This document shows positions 3-62,144 of a stretch of 64,000 nt of DNA, in pieces. The notes beneath the pieces were generated by a model, which searched no databases, was not told the origin of the DNA, and saw only the letters and a list, made by a program, of their open reading frames with translations. Within the stretch, counting starts at the first letter, position 1; the number at the start of each line of letters is the position of its first letter. The position numbers were made by a program, and so were the translations under genes. This stretch comes from Candidatus Bathyarchaeota archaeon (GTDB lineage: Archaea; Thermoproteota; Bathyarchaeia; TCS64). Location of the stretch: the NCBI GenBank assembly GCA_963771885.1, contig CAVYVF010000023.1, forward strand, positions 288,001 to 352,000, written 5' to 3'.

Positions 3-1874
3 TACGACAGGGAAAGGACCCACATGCGCGGCTTCCCTATGTGCGAGGACTGTGTGACCGACTACAGGAACCCACTTGACAGGCGGTTCGACGCCCAGGG
101 GATAACCTGCAGTGTCTGCGGCCCAAAGATGAGTCTGCTCGACGCCTCGGGGCAGCGAATGGGAGTCACCGACGTCTTCTCAGAGGCCTCGAAGCTACTA
201 AGAGAAGGGCACGTCGTCGCCGTCAAGGGCATTGGGGGCTTCCATATCGCCGCCCTAGCCACCGAGGATGACACTGTGGCAAAGCTCAGGGCACGGAAGA
301 ACCGTCCCTACCAGCCATTCGCCCTGATGGCACCCGACATAAGCGCCGTCAGGAGATTCGCCGAACCCGACGAGAACGAGTCGAAGGCGCTAGTCTCTTG
401 GCAGAAGCCGATAGTCCTCATCAGGAGGAAAGAGGAGGTCATTTCGGAGCTCGTCGCCCCCGGATTGAGCCGTGTTGGCGTAATGTTGCCCTACACAGGG
501 ATACAGGTGATGCTCTTCAAGCGTCTGGGGTTGCCCGCTCTCATTATGACGAGTGGCAACAGGTCGGGATTGCCTATGGCGACGACGAACGAAGCCGCGC
601 TGAGCGAGCTGCGGGGCATCGCCGACTATTTCCTCGTTCACGAAAGGGAGATCGTGAACAGGTGTGACGATTCGCTTTTGAGGATTAATGGAGAAAGAGT
701 CGCCTTCATACGCAGATCGCGTGGATACGTACCTGATCCTGTGGAAATTCCAATCAAAAAAGGGGTATCATTCGCAGTCGGGACCGAGCAGAGTAACGTC
801 GCCGCGATCACTCTCAACGGTAAATGTTATCAAACGCAATATTTAGGTGATATATCCAACCTCGAGTCCTTCGACTACGAGAAAACAGCCATCTACACTA
901 TGCGTGACCTTCTGAAAATCACATGTAACCCCGATGTGATTGCCTGTGACCAACATCCAGGTTACATGACATCACAGTTGGCCGAGGTGATATCACAAGA
1001 GACAGGGTCGCAAATCACAAAGTCACAGCACCATCACGCCCACATAGTCTCAGTGTGCGCTGAGAACGGAGTAAAACCAGACGAAACAGTCGTGGGAATA
1101 GCGCTAGATGGTGCGGGATACGGTCCTGACGGTACGATCTGGGGTGGAGAAGTGCTAATTTCGACGTATTTTAGCTATAAAAGGGCAGGTCATCTGCAAA
1201 ATCTACCTATGCCGGGAGGCGATCAATGCGCATACAGCCCATACAGGATGCTGATCTCAGCCCTGACCCTCACCTTGAGTGACGAAGAGATACGTGATAT
1301 CACGAAGAATCACATATCACAAGCGTTAGTTAACGGTCATGATGAGCTCAACGTGATACTCCATGAGGCACGGACGAAAAACGTTTCAAAAACTTCGAGT
1401 TCTGGCCGTTATCTCGACTCAATTGCTTCACTTCTTGGCTTGACATATCGCAGAACCTACGAAGGTGAACCCGCGATGAGACTAGAGTCACTGGCTGAAC
1501 TTGGAAACCCTGAAAACATACAAATAGAACCGAAAATCAGTCTCAACAAGGATATTCGAGTGCTTAACACGGCTAATATCCTCAATTACCTGACAATATA
1601 CCAAAATAAGCTTAAAAAACAAGATATTGCGGCATTTGCCCAAAAATATCTCGCCGTTGGTATATCGAATATTGCAATCGAGATAGCACAAGCAGAACAC
1701 ATAGATACAGTGGTAATATCTGGCGGAGTCTTCGTAAACCAGTACATATCTAATACAATCGTCAAAACTCTCGAAAAAAACGGAGTAAAAGTATTAGTTA
1801 ATAAAAAAACCGCACCTGGAGATGGTGGTTCAGCTTTAGGACAATCGTGTATAGCCCTTGCATCTGTGATTTAG
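3..1874 (+). CDS. hypF: Hydrogenase maturation carbamoyltransferase HypF (5' truncated by window edge)
   Basis: FPMCxxC...RRFDAQGITCxxCGP Zn finger, AVKGIGGFH, MTSGN, NRCDDS, QHHHAH, LDGxGYG..WGGE, TSSxGR, SGGVFxN, PGDGGxxLGQ motifs; frame is open back to the window start. Confidence 0.96.
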   Translation, partial: YDRERTHMRGFPMCEDCVTDYRNPLDRRFDAQGITCSVCGPKMSLLDASGQRMGVTDVFSEASKLLREGHVVAVKGIGGFHIAALATEDDTVAKLRARKNRPYQPFALMAPDISAVRRFAEPDENESKALVSWQKPIVLIRRKEEVISELVAPGLSRVGVMLPYTGIQVMLFKRLGLPALIMTSGNRSGLPMATTNEAALSELRGIADYFLVHEREIVNRCDDSLLRINGERVAFIRRSRGYVPDPVEIPIKKGVSFAVGTEQSNVAAITLNGKCYQTQYLGDISNLESFDYEKTAIYTMRDLLKITCNPDVIACDQHPGYMTSQLAEVISQETGSQITKSQHHHAHIVSVCAENGVKPDETVVGIALDGAGYGPDGTIWGGEVLISTYFSYKRAGHLQNLPMPGGDQCAYSPYRMLISALTLTLSDEEIRDITKNHISQALVNGHDELNVILHEARTKNVSKTSSSGRYLDSIASLLGLTYRRTYEGEPAMRLESLAELGNPENIQIEPKISLNKDIRVLNTANILNYLTIYQNKLKKQDIAAFAQKYLAVGISNIAIEIAQAEHIDTVVISGGVFVNQYISNTIVKTLEKNGVKVLVNKKTAPGDGGSALGQSCIALASVI

Positions 1875-2775
1875 TGTGATATCACACCACTTTAAGCTTC
1901 GTCGGCCGTGCCATCAACTCGATTCCTTCAGTTAACTCATCCTCGATCCGCTTGAGCAATCGCCCTAGAAACCTTAGGACCCGATTTTTCTACAGCCGTA
2001 AGATAATCCCTCAATTTTTCGACGAGATTTTGGTACTCCTCAAAGGGTTTTGCATCGAAGACCCCAACGTAGCTAAGTAAAACTATAGTGAATATTGAAG
2101 ATATCACTCGCCTCCTTCCCTGCCCTAATGTACGGCTAAATGAGCCCCGACTCACCTTTTTGTTCCTATAAATGACCTTATTTTTAAATGGTACCTTTTC
2201 CTCAGACATTACGTCAATTAAAAGATCAATCATCAGTGTTTCAAATTGAATCTTCGTTAAATTGCTGTTTTTAAGTAACAAGTCTGTAATTGGGTCTTGA
2301 AACGCTTTTTGGATTATATTTTGGGCTTCTTCAGGTGATTCCATTGCATCGCCTCAATACAGAGTTGATTACGCCAAATGATACCATTGTATACAATACT
2401 GTATGCCGTATCAATCTTTTGTTTTCACCAGTCAACAACGTCTATTACTGCTTTAAGGAAAGCGGATCGCGTTTTCTAGGTATATAACATAAAAAATCAT
2501 TATAAATTAGCTAAAAATACATCAGGCACTGTTTAAATCCGCCAAATAACACCCTCACAAACAATGATCACTATAGAGCAATTACAGATCGACCCCGACA
2601 AAACCCTGGCAAAGATCGCTAAATTCATAAAAAATGCTTTAAAAAGAGCACACCAAGACGGTGTTGTCATAGCTGTAAGCGGCGGAATCGACTCAGCAGT
2701 AGCACTAGCCGCATCTGTAAGAGTCCTGGGACCGGACAAGATCACGGCGCTCACCCTTCCCGAACGTGATATCAC
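987..2775. repeat. Dispersed array of palindromic GTGATATCAC sites (987-996, 1294-1303, 1876-1885, 2766-2775)
   Basis: Four exact 10-bp palindromes read directly; extended to CGTGATATCACG at 1293-1304 and 2765-2776 and to GTGTGATATCACAC at 1874-1887. Confidence 0.9.
1882..2344 (-). CDS. Hypothetical protein, putative helix-turn-helix DNA-binding protein (ORF 1937-2344; probable +1 frameshift near 1958 extends it to stop at 1882)
   Basis: LTKIQFETL...VSRGSFSRTLGQGRRRV resembles the LuxR/HTH_10-type pattern LTxRQxExL...iSxxxxSxxLxxAxxkl; removing one base restores the helical tail MLKRIEDELTEGIELMARPTKLKVV*. Confidence 0.7.
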
Positions 2776-3358
2776 GCCTCAGGCAGACGTACAGGATGTG
2801 ATGGAACTCTGTGAGGCATTTGAAGTCACGTGTGAGCACGTTGAAATCACGCCGATGTTACACGTGATGCGGAAAAACATCCCCAAATTCGACCCAGACG
2901 ACCGCGTCGTCTACGGAAACATGAAAGCGCGCCTTAGGATGCTCCTCGCCTACTACTACGCCAACAAACGCAAGTCCATGGTCATGGGAACATCAAATAA
3001 AACCGAGCTTTACCTAGGCTATTTCACTAAATACGGTGACGGCGGAGTCGACATCATGCCTTTCGCCGACCTCTACAAGTGCCAGATCAGGACACTGGGC
3101 AGGCACCTGGGAGTACCAAAGAGTATCACCGAAAAGCCGGCTTCGGCTCGCCTCTGGGCAGGACAGGACACAGAGAAGGACATCGGACTACCCTACAACA
3201 GCATGGACCTTATCGTCCACACCCACTTGTTGGGCTGGGAACCAGCCAAGATTGCCGCCGAGATAGGCATAGACCAGCGCAGTGTAGAGGGGATAATAAC
3301 CAGGATAGCAGCCAACAAGCACAAACGTCGCTCTCCGGCAATCTTAAGACTAAGCTAA
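2564..3358 (+). CDS. nadE: NH3-dependent NAD+ synthetase
   Basis: SGGIDSAV, GNMKARLRM, GTSNKTE..GYFTKYGDG, DLYKxQIR, PASARLW motifs. Confidence 0.96.
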   Translation: MITIEQLQIDPDKTLAKIAKFIKNALKRAHQDGVVIAVSGGIDSAVALAASVRVLGPDKITALTLPERDITPQADVQDVMELCEAFEVTCEHVEITPMLHVMRKNIPKFDPDDRVVYGNMKARLRMLLAYYYANKRKSMVMGTSNKTELYLGYFTKYGDGGVDIMPFADLYKCQIRTLGRHLGVPKSITEKPASARLWAGQDTEKDIGLPYNSMDLIVHTHLLGWEPAKIAAEIGIDQRSVEGIITRIAANKHKRRSPAILRLS

Positions 3359-4412: not shown

Positions 4413-7400
4413 TTGAGCCAGCTCCGCATGACCCCAGAGTACAGGGCATACTTCGACGAGTTAGAGGCGAAGCTGGCTAAGCTATACGAGATCGCAGGCG
4501 AGGCGAGGAAAAAGGGCTTCGATGCCTCCACCGAGGTCGAGGCTCAGATCACGCGGGACATCGCGGAGCGAGTCGAGAAGATGCTCGGCCCACCTGGCCT
4601 CACGGCGCGCATGCGCGAGCTTGAGGGCATGGACCGCCGAGAGATGGCCTTCAAGATCGCGGAGGAGATCACCCTCGGACGCTTCGGCAGCTTAGAGAAG
4701 GAAAAGGCCGCCGACCAGGCGATACGCACCGCCCTCGCCATAATGACTGAGGGCGTAACCGTCGCCCCAATCGAGGGCCTCCCAAAGATATGCATAAAGC
4801 CCAACCCCGACCGCACACAATACCTGAGCCTCTACTTCGCCGGCCCCATACGCCCCGCCGGAGGCACAGCCCAGGCGATGACCCTCGTCGTCGCTGACCA
4901 TGTCCGCAAGAAGCTCGGCCTAGAGAAGTTCCAGCCAAGCGAGAACCAGGTCCAGCGCTTCGTCGAGGAAGTGCGCCTCTACGAGCGCACCGTTCGCCGC
5001 TTCCAGTACCACACCACCGACGAGGACCTCGAGGCAGCAATACGCCAGATACCTGTCGAGGCCACGGGAGTCGCCACCGATCCCTTCGAGGTGAGCAACT
5101 ACCGAGACGTCGCCGGTATTGAGACGAACAGGCTCCGCGGCGGCGCCCTCATCGTCGTCGTGGATGGCGTCGTTGGACGCGCAAGGAAACTCCACGGCGC
5201 CTGCGACAAGCTCGGCATCACCGGCTGGGAGTGGCTCCTCAAGATGGGGAGGAAGAAGAAGGTCGAGGGTGAGGTCAAGGCGGAGCCCACTGCCGCCTTC
5301 ATGGATGAGATAATTGTTGGTCGCCCTGTCTTCAGCTTCCCCGGGGCGATAGGGGGTTTCCGACTCCGCTACGGCAGGGCGCGCAACACGGGGCTCGCAG
5401 CCTCTGGCGTACACCCAGCAGCCATGGTCGTGCTCAACAAGTTCCTCGCCACGGGCGTTCAAATGAGAACAGAGCTACCGGGTAAGTCCGCCGCCACTTG
5501 CCCCGTCGACTCAATAGAGCCGCCAGTAGTGCGCCTCAAAGACGGCTCGGTACAGAGAGTAGAGACAGAAGCCGAGGCCGAGCTCCTCCTCCCCCAGATA
5601 AACAGGATAATCTTCCTCGGCGACTACCTCAGCAACGCCGGTGACTTCATCCAGAACAACAAGGCCCTACTCCCAACGGGGTACGACGAGAACCAGTGGG
5701 TGCAGGACCTCAACGCCTCATGCGCGAGGCTCGGCGAGGACGCCGCCATAAGCCTCACGGGGCTCCTCTCAGAGAGGATTAGGTTCCTCAAGTCGAGCCC
5801 CCTCAACCGCCCGACTGTGGATGAGGCGCTCGCAGTCACGGCTATGGACGTCCCCATACACCCGAGGTGGAACTATCACTGGTCCGCCCTCACGAAAGAC
5901 GAATCTACTAGCCTTCCGCAACACACTCGCCACCGAGTACAACCCTGAGTCCACCGAGTACCCAAACATCCCCGAGATCAAAGCGCCCCTCGAGGCACTG
6001 CTCCTGCCCCACAAGGTTCGCGGCGGCAAACTCGACCTCGGTGAGGACGCCCGCGTGTTAGCGAGGACCCTCAACCTAGGCCAGAGATACACGGAGGTCA
6101 AGGGCGAGAAGCCGATTGAGGTCGTGAACTACTTCGCCGGGTTCCCCGTACGGGAGAAGGTAGGGGTATTTGTCGGAGCCCGCATGGGGCGCCCTGAGAA
6201 GGCGAAGGAGCGTCGCATGGCCCCCTACGTCCACAGCCTCTACCCCGTCGGTGAGGCAGGCGGCCCCCAGAGGGACATACTCAAGGCAGAGAAGGGCAAA
6301 ACGGTCAGGATCGAGCTCAGTCAGCGGGAGTGCCTCACCTGTGGCGAGATAGGCAGCACCACCGTCTGCCAGAACTGCGGGGGAGAGACCAAAGAGATAC
6401 GCAGGTGCAGCCGCTGCGGACTCCGATTCGAGGGTGAGCGGTGCCCCCAGTGCCGATCCGAGATCGTCTCCTACACAGGCGTCGATGTAGACCTGAAGGA
6501 CGAGCTCGAGGCGGCGCGCAAAGCGATCGGCGGACAGCTACCGGCGCGCGTCAAGTGCGTGAAGAGGCTAATGAACGCGACGAGGACGCCAGAGAACCTC
6601 GCCAAAGGCATACTCCGTGCCCGTTACGACCTTAGCGTCTTCAAGGACGGCACGCTCCGCTTCGACCTTACCGATATACCCCTCACACACTTCAGACCCA
6701 ACGAGGTCTTCGTCCCCGTTGAGAGGCTCAGGAGCCTCGGCTACACCCATGACACGCATGGCGCACCCCTAGAGCGCCCCGACCAGATGCTTGAGCTCAA
6801 GGTGCAGGACGTAATACTCCCCGAGGACTGCGGCGACTACCTCCTCAAGGCATCCAAGTTCCTCGATGACCAGCTACGCGACTTCTACGGGATGCAGCCG
6901 TACTACAACGCAAAGAGTCGGAACGACCTCGTGGGCTGCCTGCTCCTTGGCCTGGCGCCGCACACCTCCGCCGCCATAACAGGGCGCCTCATTGGCTTCA
7001 CGAAGGTACGCAACCAGTACGCTCACCCCCTTTGGCACGCTGCGAAGAGGAGGAACTGCGACGGCGATGAGGACGCAGTCATGTTAGCGCTCGACCCGCT
7101 GCTCAACTTCAGTAAAGCCTACCTGCCACAGCAGAGCGGTGGCCAGATGGACGCGCCTCTATTTATCATCCCCACGATGAACCCGAGCGAGGTTGATAAG
7201 GAGGCGCACAACGTCGACGTGAACAGCAGCTACCCACCGGAGTTCTACAAGCTTTGCTCGGAGGGGGCGGGGAGCGGCCAGTACGGCGCCTTAGTCGACA
7301 CGATCGGGGCACGCCTCGGCACCGAGGCCCAGTTCGAGGGTATAAGTTACACCGAGGAGTGCAGCGACATAAACCTCGGCAGCTTCCACGGCGCTTATAA

Positions 7401-7851
7401 CACACTCACCACGATGGTGGAGAAGCTCGACAGCCAGCTAGAGCTCGCCCAGAAGCTACGCGCCGTCGACGCCAAGCAGGTTGCCCTTAAGATCCTCAAC
7501 AGTCACTTCATGAAGGACATCGTCGGGAACCTTCGTGCTTTCACCAGCCAGACCTTCCGCTGCACAAAGTGCAACAGGAAGTATAGGCGTCCCCCGCTCG
7601 CCGGGAAGTGCCTGCGCTGCGGCGGCACCATACAGATGACCGTCCACAAGGGCGGCATCGAGAAGTACCTCAAGCCCGCCCTCGACATGGTGAAGAAGTA
7701 CGAGCTCGACCCATACTACGTCGACCGCCTCGAGCTAGTAAAGCTGGAGATGAGCCAGATATTCGTCGAAGAGGCTGTCCCCGAGGAGACATCGAAGCAG
7801 TTCAGCCTCACCGACTTCATGCGGTCGTCTGCAAAGAAGCCCGCACAGTAA
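4413..7851 (+). CDS. polC: DNA polymerase D large subunit DP2; split into ORFs 4413-5948 and 5821-7851 by an apparent +1 frameshift near 5902
   Basis: YFAGPIRxAGGTAQ, GRPVF..GGFRLRYGRxRNTG, GARMGRPEK, HAAKRRNCDGDED catalytic motif and C-terminal CxxC...CxxC; no intein seen. Confidence 0.95.
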
Positions 7852-60515: not shown

Positions 60516-62144
60516 TCACTTCAGGTTTTTCAGGATCGATGAGATGAGACCCTCCTCGGTCTCAGCGTATAAAACGTGTATCTGGTAGAGTTCAGCGAGC
60601 CTAAGCTCCTCCGAATTAGGCGGTATTAGGGAGGCGAGGACGAATCTAGCCGACTTCAGGTCAGAATGAAGGCTACTTCTCTCCACTATCCTGTTGAAAA
60701 CGGAGCCGTCCGTCAGTACGTCTATGCAGAGGCTTGCCTCCATCTTCGGGTTCTTGGCGAACACGTCAAAGAGGTAGGACTTCGATGCACCTTGCAGTGT
60801 GCCCGGCACTTCGACGGACCATTTCTTGTCTTCTAGGGCGTCCCTGATCTTGGTGGCGAGCGTTTCCACCTTGATGCGTTGGGCGACCTGCTTCAACTTT
60901 TCCTGTATCGGCTGCCCGAGCTGCCAATAGTCCCTGAACATCAGGAGCATCGTCTCGACGTAGGCGCTGATGTTTGACCATACTGTGCGTTTCTGGAGAT
61001 CCATGTAGGGGACGTTCATCAGCGCCTCCTTTGCGTCGATGGTAAGGAGGATGAGGTCGGTCGAGGCGGCGTTCTCCGCGATGATCATGTCTTCGCCGGC
61101 GATGTTGGCGAGGTAGGGTAGGTTCTTCGGGTTAGTCTTTGTCAGCACCCTCGTCTTTACACCCTTGACCGTGATGTCATCGATCTCATCGAGAGGCAAC
61201 GGTAAGGCAGTCGAGTCGTTCGCCATGATATCAACTGCTTTGGTGGCTCTCCCTATCATGTCTCTGAAGAGCTTGGTGTACTCCTCGTTCGTCATGTAGG
61301 TGATTATTTCCTGACTTGGTTCCCCGGTCTGGATGGATTTTATCATGGACTCCGCCTCGGGGGCGAGGCTCCAGAGGGCGTCGAAGAATATCCTCATCGC
61401 CGCGACATAGCTCGAGGCGTTTGTCCAGAGCCCGGTGTCTGCCTTCGTCGTCATGCTCATCGAGTCGTCCATGGCGACTGTCGTGAGGGTCTCCCTCCCG
61501 TCGATTATTGCGAACCTTATTGGCGCCGAGAGGATCACGTGGCGGGCCTCGACCAGCCCCAGATATGGCTCGACATTTTTCAGGCCTTCCACATCGATCT
61601 GCGTGAGCACTCTAACCTTCTTCCCATTCTGAGTGAGCGCCTTGAACCTATCGTCAACCCCCCAGAGCGAGAGACGTGCTAGGTCACGCGTCGTCGTGAC
61701 GAGTCGCACCTCTTCCTCCGCCTTGTCACACATCTCCAGTAGGAGGTCGAAAACCTGCTGTCTGCCTTGGAATATTCGGAACTTGAACTCCTCGTCTGTT
61801 GGCTGTGCGGCACCACTTGCGAGGTTCTTCCACTCCTCAACGAGGGTACCGCTGTTCTGTTCGAGGTCCGTTAGGCGCTGCTTAAGCCCACCTTTCTGCC
61901 TGTTTAGTACGTCGATGAGTGGTGTCGCGACGTACCTTATGGGACGCCCAATGAGGCTTTGCACGAGCCCCTTGTCCTCGAGCGTCTTCAGGCTCCTGTA
62001 TGCCTTCATCCTGTTGAGGTTGAATCGGCGGGAGACTATGCGGGCGGGTGACGGCCCCATCGCCGAGAGGAAAACGTATAGCTCCGCTTCGTTTTTTTCA
62101 AGCCCAAGTTCCTGTAGGCGCTTCGTTAGCCTCTCGGTGGACAT
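60516..62144 (-). CDS. TrmB family transcriptional regulator with tandem effector-like domains and an extra C-terminal domain
   Basis: LGLxxNEAxLYxxL...YRSLKTLEDKGLV..GRPIRY HTH; two RFAIID/LLTID...W.N....F..xW repeats. Confidence 0.88.
   Translation of the reverse strand: MSTERLTKRLQELGLEKNEAELYVFLSAMGPSPARIVSRRFNLNRMKAYRSLKTLEDKGLVQSLIGRPIRYVATPLIDVLNRQKGGLKQRLTDLEQNSGTLVEEWKNLASGAAQPTDEEFKFRIFQGRQQVFDLLLEMCDKAEEEVRLVTTTRDLARLSLWGVDDRFKALTQNGKKVRVLTQIDVEGLKNVEPYLGLVEARHVILSAPIRFAIIDGRETLTTVAMDDSMSMTTKADTGLWTNASSYVAAMRIFFDALWSLAPEAESMIKSIQTGEPSQEIITYMTNEEYTKLFRDMIGRATKAVDIMANDSTALPLPLDEIDDITVKGVKTRVLTKTNPKNLPYLANIAGEDMIIAENAASTDLILLTIDAKEALMNVPYMDLQKRTVWSNISAYVETMLLMFRDYWQLGQPIQEKLKQVAQRIKVETLATKIRDALEDKKWSVEVPGTLQGASKSYLFDVFAKNPKMEASLCIDVLTDGSVFNRIVERSSLHSDLKSARFVLASLIPPNSEELRLAELYQIHVLYAETEEGLISSILKNLK

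What the first reader, a model, noticed from the sequence alone, without database searches (positions are those of the whole stretch)
966..2850. Clustered GTGATATCAC palindromes embedded in housekeeping genes: candidate centromere/terminus/origin-like site array
Seen: four exact GTGATATCAC copies lie within 1.8 kb (987, 1294, 1876, 2766), three extended to 12-14 bp palindromes. There are also 8/10 variants (966 ATGACATCAC, 1680 GAGATAGCAC, 2098 AAGATATCAC, 2841 TTGAAATCAC) and many ATCAC/GTGAT half-sites. By eye I found no exact copy in the other 61 kb, only an 8/10 match near 61225. A given 10-mer is expected roughly once per Mb. Three copies are in coding DNA in two phases (GTG-ATA-TCA = VIS in hypF; CGT-GAT-ATC-ACG = RDIT in both hypF and nadE), so the constraint looks DNA-level, and none sits in a promoter. 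Knowledge: bacterial parS, matS and NBS sites are short palindromes clustered in one chromosomal region regardless of gene boundaries. Inference: a chromosome segregation, organisation or replication landmark in this lineage.
Basis: partly seen in the sequence, partly recalled or inferred. Interest (0 to 1): 0.88.

Follow-up and report, generated by a model that had tools for sequence, protein, structure and literature searches.

The report
Palindrome array for membrane-anchored DNA binder
In a group of uncultured archaea, a short DNA palindrome is written four times into one AT-rich spot, even inside housekeeping genes, and it most likely docks a membrane-anchored DNA-binding protein encoded next door, which could hold this part of the chromosome at the cell membrane.

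Summary
Real and selected. All 4 GTGATATCAC copies of this 2.46-Mb Bathyarchaeia genome lie at 987-2766. In relatives, 78 of 93 copies lie at the same locus, and synonymous codons are frozen at the sites. The general motif is GTGAYRTCAC plus GTGAY half-sites, conserved across much of the phylum.

It does not follow the central gene X, which has its own box at 2392. It follows Y, encoded 583 bp before the window: transmembrane helix, coiled coil, winged helix. No palindrome lies near X in 9 of 9 X-only loci.

X-Y(-Z) sits beside cdc6/oriC in 45 of 65 loci outside this order. This order lacks Z (0 of 79) and nearly always that cdc6 (1 of 79). Here hypF separates the sites from Y's promoter, which holds none, so plain autoregulation fits poorly.

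Best reading (0.5): a RicO/RocS-like chromosome-to-membrane tether site. Binding and function are inferred, not shown. The scan noted this module before on other DNA (four notes). New here: the array persists, inside coding DNA, after losing both oriC and Y's promoter.

The parts
918..1000 (.). Block of registered GTGAY/RTCAC half-sites inside hypF (codons 306-331). It includes the relaxed palindrome at 966 and the exact one at 987.
   Evidence: Near-fixed degenerate codons. The same block persists as non-coding DNA in 4 genomes whose hypF lies elsewhere.
966..975 (.). Relaxed palindrome ATGACATCAC (RTGAYRTCAY); a real member of the array
   Evidence: hypF T323 ACA 20/21, S324 TCA 21/21; aligns with the central palindrome of the non-coding blocks
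987..996 (.). Exact GTGATATCAC, read as V-I-S in hypF
   Evidence: I330 ATA 17/17, S331 TCA 21/21
1293..1313 (.). 12-bp palindrome CGTGATATCACG (R-D-I-T in hypF) plus a tandem half-site at 1309
   Evidence: R431 CGT 18/18 (CGT is 9% of Arg codons genome-wide), I433 ATC 20/20, N436 AAT 19/19, H437 CAC 21/21
1866..1887 (.). 14-bp palindrome (1874-1887) holding the stop codon of X, plus a half-site at 1866; lies between the converging 3' ends of hypF and X
   Evidence: The most constant site: at or beside the X stop in most X+Y lineages, also where hypF is absent or the stop has moved
2765..2776 (.). 12-bp palindrome in nadE (R-D-I-T), about 430 bp upstream of the X start
   Evidence: I70 ATC 14/14, R68 CGT 14/19; a site 360-630 bp upstream of X recurs in other orders with other neighbours
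2798..2868 (.). Constrained half-sites in nadE (codons 79, 90, 95, 101)
   Evidence: GTG 22/22, TGT 24/24, ATC 23/23, GTG 17/17
1882..2344 (-). Gene X: single-copy conserved hypothetical protein, about 153 aa (one extra base near 1958-1960 is a probable assembly error); all-helical, probable N-terminal helix-turn-helix
   Evidence: (158 of 301 phylum genomes); no meaningful Pfam, NCBIfam or PDB-sequence family
2392..2403 (.). X's own promoter box, TACA-N4-TGTA (a second motif, distinct from the finding's)
   Evidence: Within 1 mismatch before 65 of 72 X+Y and 4 of 9 X-only starts; 13 of 365 control starts
1148..2647 (.). AT-rich trough (40% GC against 58% for the contig) spanning the array
   Evidence: GC3 33 points below flanks across 15 loci of the order; absent from hypF copies located elsewhere
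3..1874 (+). hypF (3' part), host gene of two exact sites. Its 5' end and gene Y (contig C23 287417-286749, minus strand, 222 aa, start 583 bp before window base 1) lie just outside the window.
2564..3358 (+). nadE, host gene of one exact site; followed by Elf1, GGGP synthase and DP2 (polC)

Best explanation
The palindromes and surrounding half-sites are the binding array of protein Y, encoded just outside the window: N-terminal transmembrane helix, long coiled coil, C-terminal MarR/TrmB-type winged helix with a near-invariant REH(T/V/S)xR recognition helix. Each winged helix reads a GTGAY half-site, and the coiled-coil dimer reads GTGAYRTCAC. Many Y dimers coat a 2-kb AT-rich patch centred on gene X and, being membrane-anchored, hold this chromosomal position (ancestrally beside oriC) at the membrane. 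It would work like a centromere or origin tether of the RicO/RocS/RacA kind. SHOWN: clustering, DNA-level selection, co-occurrence with Y, Y's sequence features, and synteny with cdc6/ORB in other orders. INFERRED: that Y binds the motif (about 0.8), membrane topology, and tethering as the selected function.
For: Selection on DNA, not protein: frozen rare codons. 11 of 11 hypF copies next to X carry palindromes and 10 of them show falling GC3 towards X, while 0 of 4 hypF copies elsewhere in the order carry any palindrome or such a gradient. The site block survives in non-coding DNA.

Assignment to Y: a relaxed palindrome lies near X in 66 of 69 loci with Y (183 in 240 kb near against 8 in 715 kb far) and in 0 of 9 X-only loci (Y not found there). 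Y loss needs 3 changes on the X tree, at least 2 forced. Half-sites are enriched before Y in 18 Y-only loci (101 against 26 expected). X has a different box of its own. An independent set of 80 named Bathyarchaeia loci picked by Y gave 79 with X, and all 79 have GTGAYRTCAC near it.

Not just a promoter operator: with hypF between X and Y (13 loci), the 300 bp before Y hold 15 half-sites against 11.8 expected and no palindrome, with the nearest 1.4-3.4 kb away; when X and Y are adjacent (23 loci) it is 205 against 15.8.

Tether anatomy: hydropathy maximum 1.9-2.7 in 13 of 13 family-f1 Y proteins, basic residues after the helix and almost no outside domain. cdc6 lies within 6.5 kb of X in 45 of 65 loci outside the order, with ORB-like boxes in the spacer.
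Against: No binding, localisation or phenotype data. Y lacks a transmembrane helix in families f24, f31, f22, f25, f51 and in the Y-only families f26, f39, f41, f49, f54, yet half-site arrays persist in most of them, so membrane anchoring is not required to keep sites. In the ancestral layout the sites flank Y's promoter, as operators do. After hypF insertion the array stays with X, not Y, which also fits control of X. All sites lie in 2 kb, whereas ricS sites span about 700 kb. In this order the link to an origin is lost, so 'origin-proximal' is ancestral only. The co-occurrence rests on 2-3 independent losses, and absence calls come from genomes 90-100% complete; one X-only genome (G135) has a weak Y-profile hit at 8e-8. 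The GC3 trough is weak in other Bathyarchaeia (10 points, 3 loci). The 4 unlinked hypF copies may be a different hypF lineage.
Confidence: 0.5

Rival explanations
1. Regulatory operator array: Y is a membrane-bound transcription regulator that controls itself (ancestral layout) and, by looping between the sites about 430 bp upstream of X and at the X stop, controls X. Sites in coding DNA are auxiliary operators, as for lac O2/O3 (recalled).
For: Dense sites flank Y's promoter wherever X and Y are adjacent and in Y-only lineages. Y's winged helix is MarR/TrmB/Lrs14-like. Sites bracket X at a steady distance across orders. TM-less Y keeps its arrays. An earlier scan note on another genome preferred this reading (e1-6521062).
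Against: In 13 hypF-inserted loci Y's upstream region has no palindromes or enrichment. In this genome no exact site is within 400 bp of the X start or 1.5 kb of the Y start. There is no regulon: only 6 GTGAYRTCAC genome-wide, 4 of them here. Y has no sensory domain beyond the helix. A 2-kb synonymous AT trough is not expected of simple operators.
Confidence: 0.3
2. Replacement replication origin: having lost the oriC-type cdc6, Z and the ORB spacer, this order initiates replication in the AT-rich patch, with Y (and/or X) acting as a WhiP-like initiator or accessory factor.
For: An oriC-type cdc6 was found in only 1 of 79 genomes of the order (that copy is on a 3.7-kb contig unlinked to X), against 7 of 8 sampled genomes of other orders. 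Z was found in 0 of 79 with the control positive in 4 of 4. Where hypF is absent, very AT-rich 250-550-bp spacers lie between the palindromes. DP1 and DP2 still flank the locus.
Against: The array and AT trough also exist where a normal ORB/cdc6 origin lies 2 kb away (family f20), so they predate the loss. No skew inflection at the locus on the 1-Mb contig (the signal is weak throughout). In most genomes the would-be unwinding zone is coding DNA. A second cdc6 paralogue remains. Origin-independent replication is reported in other archaea (PMC5663688, abstract start in a search listing).
Confidence: 0.12
3. The central protein X (or an X-Y complex) is the reader of the tight palindrome, and Y only reads loose half-sites.
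For: The array stays centred on X when hypF separates X from Y. Zero-spacer palindromes are rare in Y-only loci. X has a probable helix-turn-helix.
Against: 0 of 9 X-only loci have a palindrome near X although X's putative recognition helix is conserved. X has its own, different box.
Confidence: 0.08

Closest known systems
RicO-ricS of Staphylococcus aureus (bioRxiv 10.64898/2026.03.06.710092; 12 passages read)
   Same: [quoted passage not shown]
   Different: Bacterial. DNA-binding domain N-terminal and amphipathic helix C-terminal, the reverse of Y, which has a true TM helix. ricS is an 18-bp non-palindrome, intergenic, nine sites over about 700 kb. Here a 10-bp palindrome plus half-sites lies in 2 kb, partly in coding DNA.
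RocS (Streptococcus pneumoniae) and pSK1 Par (PMC11500499; 8 passages read)
   Same: Winged helix, coiled coil and membrane anchor used for chromosome or plasmid segregation without needing its own ATPase partner.
   Different: MerR-type wHTH and DUF536 amphipathic helix, reversed domain order; Y is MarR/TrmB-like and matched none of these families.
RacA-ram of Bacillus subtilis (described in passages; otherwise recalled)
   Same: Clustered sites inside protein-coding genes that anchor origin-side DNA.
   Different: RacA reaches the membrane through DivIVA and acts in development; its sites are spread far more widely.
SegAB (Sulfolobus) and AspA-ParBA (pNOB8) (PMC5120986; 12 passages read)
   Same: Archaeal site-specific binders of palindromes next to their own genes; the same centromere-versus-operator ambiguity was stated for SegB sites.
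   Different: Both have a ParA-type ATPase in the cassette; none was recognised near X-Y and no clear ParA in G000. No membrane anchor there.
Sulfolobus oriC3-WhiP and ucm-UBP (PMC4010727, PMC12141716; passages read)
   Same: Origin-adjacent, sequence-specific factors other than Cdc6.
   Different: Their sites lie within the intergenic origin; no WhiP or UBP match for X or Y in family or PDB-sequence scans.
Autoregulated MarR/TrmB/Lrs14-type archaeal regulators
   Same: Winged-helix type; sites around Y's promoter in the ancestral layout.
   Different: TM helix plus long coiled coil; in this order the sites are 1.4-3.4 kb from Y and inside other genes; scores are far below the Lrs14 cut-off.

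Membership tests
ParABS (parS/ParB/ParA) | ParB-type protein as binder, encoded with ParA near the sites | tested here: not met
   X and Y have no ParB match. ParB_N hits in G000 are on other contigs and absent from G013 and G199. Best ParA-type hit in G000 is 3.5e-9.
ParABS (parS/ParB/ParA) | Short palindromes clustered near the origin regardless of gene borders | tested here: met
   Clustering; next to cdc6/ORB in other orders. In this order the origin position is unknown.
SegAB / AspA-ParBA | Walker-type ATPase gene in the cassette | tested here: not met
   None among the recurrent neighbours annotated in 81 loci; singleton neighbours were not all annotated.
Cdc6/ORB origin | ORB boxes with G-string flanking an intergenic AT-rich element next to cdc6 | tested here: not met
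   No ORB-like spacer and no cdc6 in 16 of 16 loci of the order; present in other orders 1-5 kb from X.
Cdc6/ORB origin | Replication starts here | not testable with these tools
   Skew uninformative; only assembled contigs of other runs were available.
WhiP-type initiator | Homology to WhiP | tested here: inconclusive
   No WhiP family among NCBIfam matches shown for X or Y (top 25 of 45 families shown for Y).
RicO/RocS/pSK1 Par tethers | N-terminal MerR-type wHTH with C-terminal amphipathic helix | tested here: not met
   Y has the reverse order and a MarR/TrmB-like wHTH.
RicO/RocS/pSK1 Par tethers | DNA-binding domain, coiled coil and membrane anchor in one chain | tested here: met
   By sequence only: Pfam MarR/TrmB, alanine-zipper-like middle, hydropathy; not met in TM-less lineages.
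RicO/RocS/pSK1 Par tethers | Needed for origin positioning or segregation | not testable with these tools
   Needs genetics and imaging.
matS / dif terminus landmark | Located at the terminus, near dif/Xer | tested here: inconclusive
   No tyrosine recombinase found in G000 or G021; synteny with oriC in other orders argues against it.
Autoregulated MarR/TrmB operator | Sites overlap the regulator's own promoter | tested here: not met
   Not met in this genome and 12 other hypF-inserted loci; met in 23 loci where X and Y are adjacent.

The most novel reading that the evidence does not exclude
In this Bathyarchaeia order, which seems to have dropped the canonical Cdc6/ORB origin, the Y-coated AT-rich patch is a membrane-attached site that serves as both centromere and Cdc6-ORB-independent replication start, overprinted on housekeeping genes: a literal replicon-at-the-membrane device in archaea.
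Probability: 0.12. Interest if true: 0.93.

Novelty: new variant of a known kind. Interest (0 to 1): 0.74.

Why it matters
How most archaea segregate chromosomes is open. The described systems (SegAB, AspA-ParBA) use a ParA-type ATPase, and no clear ParA was found in this genome. The finding names a specific protein (Y), a specific 10-bp site, a second protein-site pair (X and its box), and a natural experiment in which the sites leave Y's promoter and the origin yet stay under selection. That makes the tether-versus-operator question directly testable in vitro and in cultivable relatives. The apparent order-wide loss of the oriC-type cdc6 is itself a lead on how these abundant sediment archaea start replication.

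Tried and rejected
Chance: rejected. Protein-level constraint: rejected.

8/10 variants as independent evidence: not above chance as a class.

X as obvious binder: my first guess, dropped. My first X-box pattern was mis-specified and scored 0 of 81; it was corrected.

Family and fold of X: no real match in Pfam, NCBIfam or PDB sequences. Foldseek gave no hit at E 0.001 or better for either model. VIA-align matched residues 26-86 to helix-turn-helix chains (8hno Z 6.2, rmsd 1.4 over 52 residues; 7vim; 1rp3), but not above the helical background, so this is a lead only. The wide search was not obtained for the better model.

X-Y complex prediction: no answer, score 0.00, neither for nor against.

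GC, AT and strand-corrected skew on own contigs: no clear inflection. Xer: none found in G000 or G021. SMC is present but unlinked. The sigma-70 scan is not suited to archaea and gave nothing above chance.

Literature: ten searches listed no paper describing this motif or module. For one search, 20 of 28 listings were seen, all unrelated by title. The library lacks most subscription journals, and no supplements were read, so a prior mention cannot be excluded.
Full report
OBSERVATION. The four exact copies are at 987, 1294, 1876 and 2766. They are all the copies in the 2.46-Mb, 23-contig assembly. No other ten-base palindrome has four copies in 2 kb. Expected 0.89 copies per genome; cluster p about 4e-8 after correction; half-site density is the genome maximum, 21 per 2 kb against a mean of 3.2. 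The 8/10 variants are not enriched as a class (22 against 20.9). The organism is a Bathyarchaeia archaeon by the source names of close homologues.

LOCAL ANATOMY. hypF (3-1874, +) converges on gene X (2344-1882, -); nadE, Elf1, GGGP synthase and DP2 follow. X reads as 135 aa because of one extra base near 1958-1960 that is missing in contigs of 4 of 4 related runs. The ancestral stop is the TGA inside the 1876 palindrome. Beyond the 5' end of hypF, 583 bp before the window, starts gene Y (C23 287417-286749, 222 aa), then DP1.

SELECTION IS ON THE DNA. Codon alignments used 27 loci of the order (12-24 covering a codon). The mean majority-codon share at conserved degenerate positions is 0.57. 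At the sites it is near 1: CGT 18/18 (9% of Arg codons genome-wide), ATC 20/20, TCA 21/21, ATA 17/17. The same test exposes further frozen half-sites at hypF codons 306-345, 436-437 and 622 and nadE codons 79, 90, 95 and 101, and fixed A/T-ending codons at hypF 463-549. The nadE palindrome is less strict (CGT 14/19, GAT 14/18). Control: 11 of 11 hypF genes next to X carry palindromes and 10 show GC3 falling towards X (not G036, of another order); 0 of 4 hypF genes located elsewhere in genomes of the order carry any or show the gradient. In four such genomes an 80-bp block of registered half-sites persists as non-coding DNA, matching the hypF-embedded block at E down to 3e-8.

CONSERVATION. X is single-copy in 32 of 41 relatives and found in 158 of 301 phylum genomes, 41 of 43 in the class. 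In 30 genomes with a fetched X locus, 78 of 93 exact copies lie in those 3.3-kb loci. Outside the order the centre varies, giving GTGAYRTCAC with tandem ATCAC/GTCAC half-sites. Of 80 named Bathyarchaeia loci picked by Y, 79 hold X and all 79 have the motif near it (146 in 272 kb against 18 in 383 kb).

WHICH PROTEIN. Among 81 X loci, 66 of 69 with Y nearby have a relaxed palindrome near X. Of the 12 others, two have Y after all (7 kb away, or missed by my ORF filter) and carry sites; one has Y elsewhere in the genome and no site; nine from families f6, f19, f43 and f45 have no Y by profile search (one weak 8e-8 hit) and no site. Half-sites after the X stop are 12 against 10 expected there, but 79 against 22 in this order and 236 against 21 in other Bathyarchaeia. 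These losses are 3 changes on the X tree, 2 forced (rows L093 and L051 left out). In 18 loci with Y but no detectable X, half-sites before Y are 101 against 26, though tight palindromes are rare. Family f24, whose Y alters the REH motif, shows no enrichment after X (4 against 3), a single case. X has its own box, TACA-N4-TGTA, here at 2392 (65 of 72, 4 of 9, control 13 of 365). I infer that Y reads GTGAY.

THE PROTEINS. Y: hydrophobic N-terminal helix followed by basic residues, a coiled-coil-like middle, and a MarR/TrmB-type winged helix with invariant R-E-H..R in 39 aligned members; members were picked partly by that motif. Ten families lack the helix. X: confident all-helical model (pLDDT 91.6), no family; its N-terminal part resembles helix-turn-helix domains only at background-level Z.

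CHROMOSOMAL CONTEXT. Outside this order the usual layout is DP2-GGGPS-Elf1-X-Y-Z-[spacer]-cdc6-DP1. cdc6 lies within 6.5 kb of X in 45 of 65 loci, and ORB-like boxes lie in the spacer zone in 25 by a strict pattern. In this order cdc6 is near X in 0 of 16 loci. An oriC-type cdc6 was found in 1 of 79 genomes (unlinked, 3.7-kb contig) and Z in 0 of 79, control 4 of 4. The array sits in a GC3 trough of 33 points in the order, 27 in family f20, 10 in other Bathyarchaeia and 4 in X-only loci (3-15 loci each). Skew gives no origin or terminus signal.

OPERATOR OR LANDMARK. Where X and Y are adjacent, sites crowd Y's promoter (205 against 15.8, 23 loci). Where hypF intervenes, as here, Y's upstream DNA is at background (15 against 11.8, no palindrome, 13 loci), and the selected sites lie 1.4-3.4 kb away, in coding DNA and between converging stops. 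So autoregulation of Y cannot be the whole reason the array is kept. Control of X by looping remains possible.

MECHANISM AND ODDS. Most likely (0.5): Y dimers, anchored by the TM helix with the coiled coil as spacer, coat the array and tether this ancestrally origin-adjacent patch to the membrane, as RicO does in S. aureus. Rivals: regulatory array 0.3, replacement origin 0.12, X as reader 0.08. Membership of ParABS, SegAB, ORB origins and the RicO/RocS family fails on defining features; the likeness is one of working principle.

NOVELTY. Ten literature searches listed no description (see Tried and rejected for calls and limits). This scan noted the module beside oriC in other genomes; those notes are unchecked and are not independent support. 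What this window adds is the detached state: array retained and selected inside housekeeping genes, away from Y's promoter, in an order that appears to lack the oriC-type cdc6.

Papers seen: passages of PMC12141716, bioRxiv 10.64898/2026.03.06.710092, PMC11500499, PMC5120986 and PMC4010727; others only as search listings; no supplements. The lac O2/O3 comparison and the positive-inside rule for membrane topology are recalled. Parts of the outputs were cut from view; the counts quoted come.

Noticed in passing
G000 and 78 other genomes of the order: The oriC-type cdc6 and its neighbour Z seem lost order-wide; only the weaker cdc6 paralogue remains, so how these archaea start replication is unclear.
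   Followed up: partly
window 4413-7851: DP2 (polC) is split into two overlapping frames near 5821-5948, probably another single-base assembly error like the one in X.
   Followed up: no
window 2392-2403: Second conserved motif, TACA-N4-TGTA, before gene X across the phylum; likely X's autoregulatory box. Family f43 shows a GACA variant.
   Followed up: yes
L051 (G000 C23 about 283400-282600), just beyond DP1: Two more uncharacterised probable DNA-binding genes conserved in this order: a 149-aa protein with a ribbon-helix-helix-like N-terminus (by eye, no Pfam hit) and a 220-aa protein with a weak TrmB match, divergently arranged.
   Followed up: no
G000, G021: No tyrosine recombinase (Xer-like) found in the own genome or in a single-contig genome of the same family.
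   Followed up: partly
L115-L133 (families f26, f39, f41, f49, f54): Y without a transmembrane helix and without detectable X, with half-site arrays before Y; Z stays beside it in f26, f39 and f49, and hypF is again a neighbour in f26 and f49.
   Followed up: partly
G000 C2:265875 and C17:20791: Two similar cdc6 paralogues on different contigs, each followed by a small winged-helix gene; may reflect the 6.7% contamination of the bin.
   Followed up: no
L219 (G347 C37): The single oriC-type cdc6 in the order lies on a 3.7-kb contig unlinked to X; misbinning or a retained copy.
   Followed up: partly
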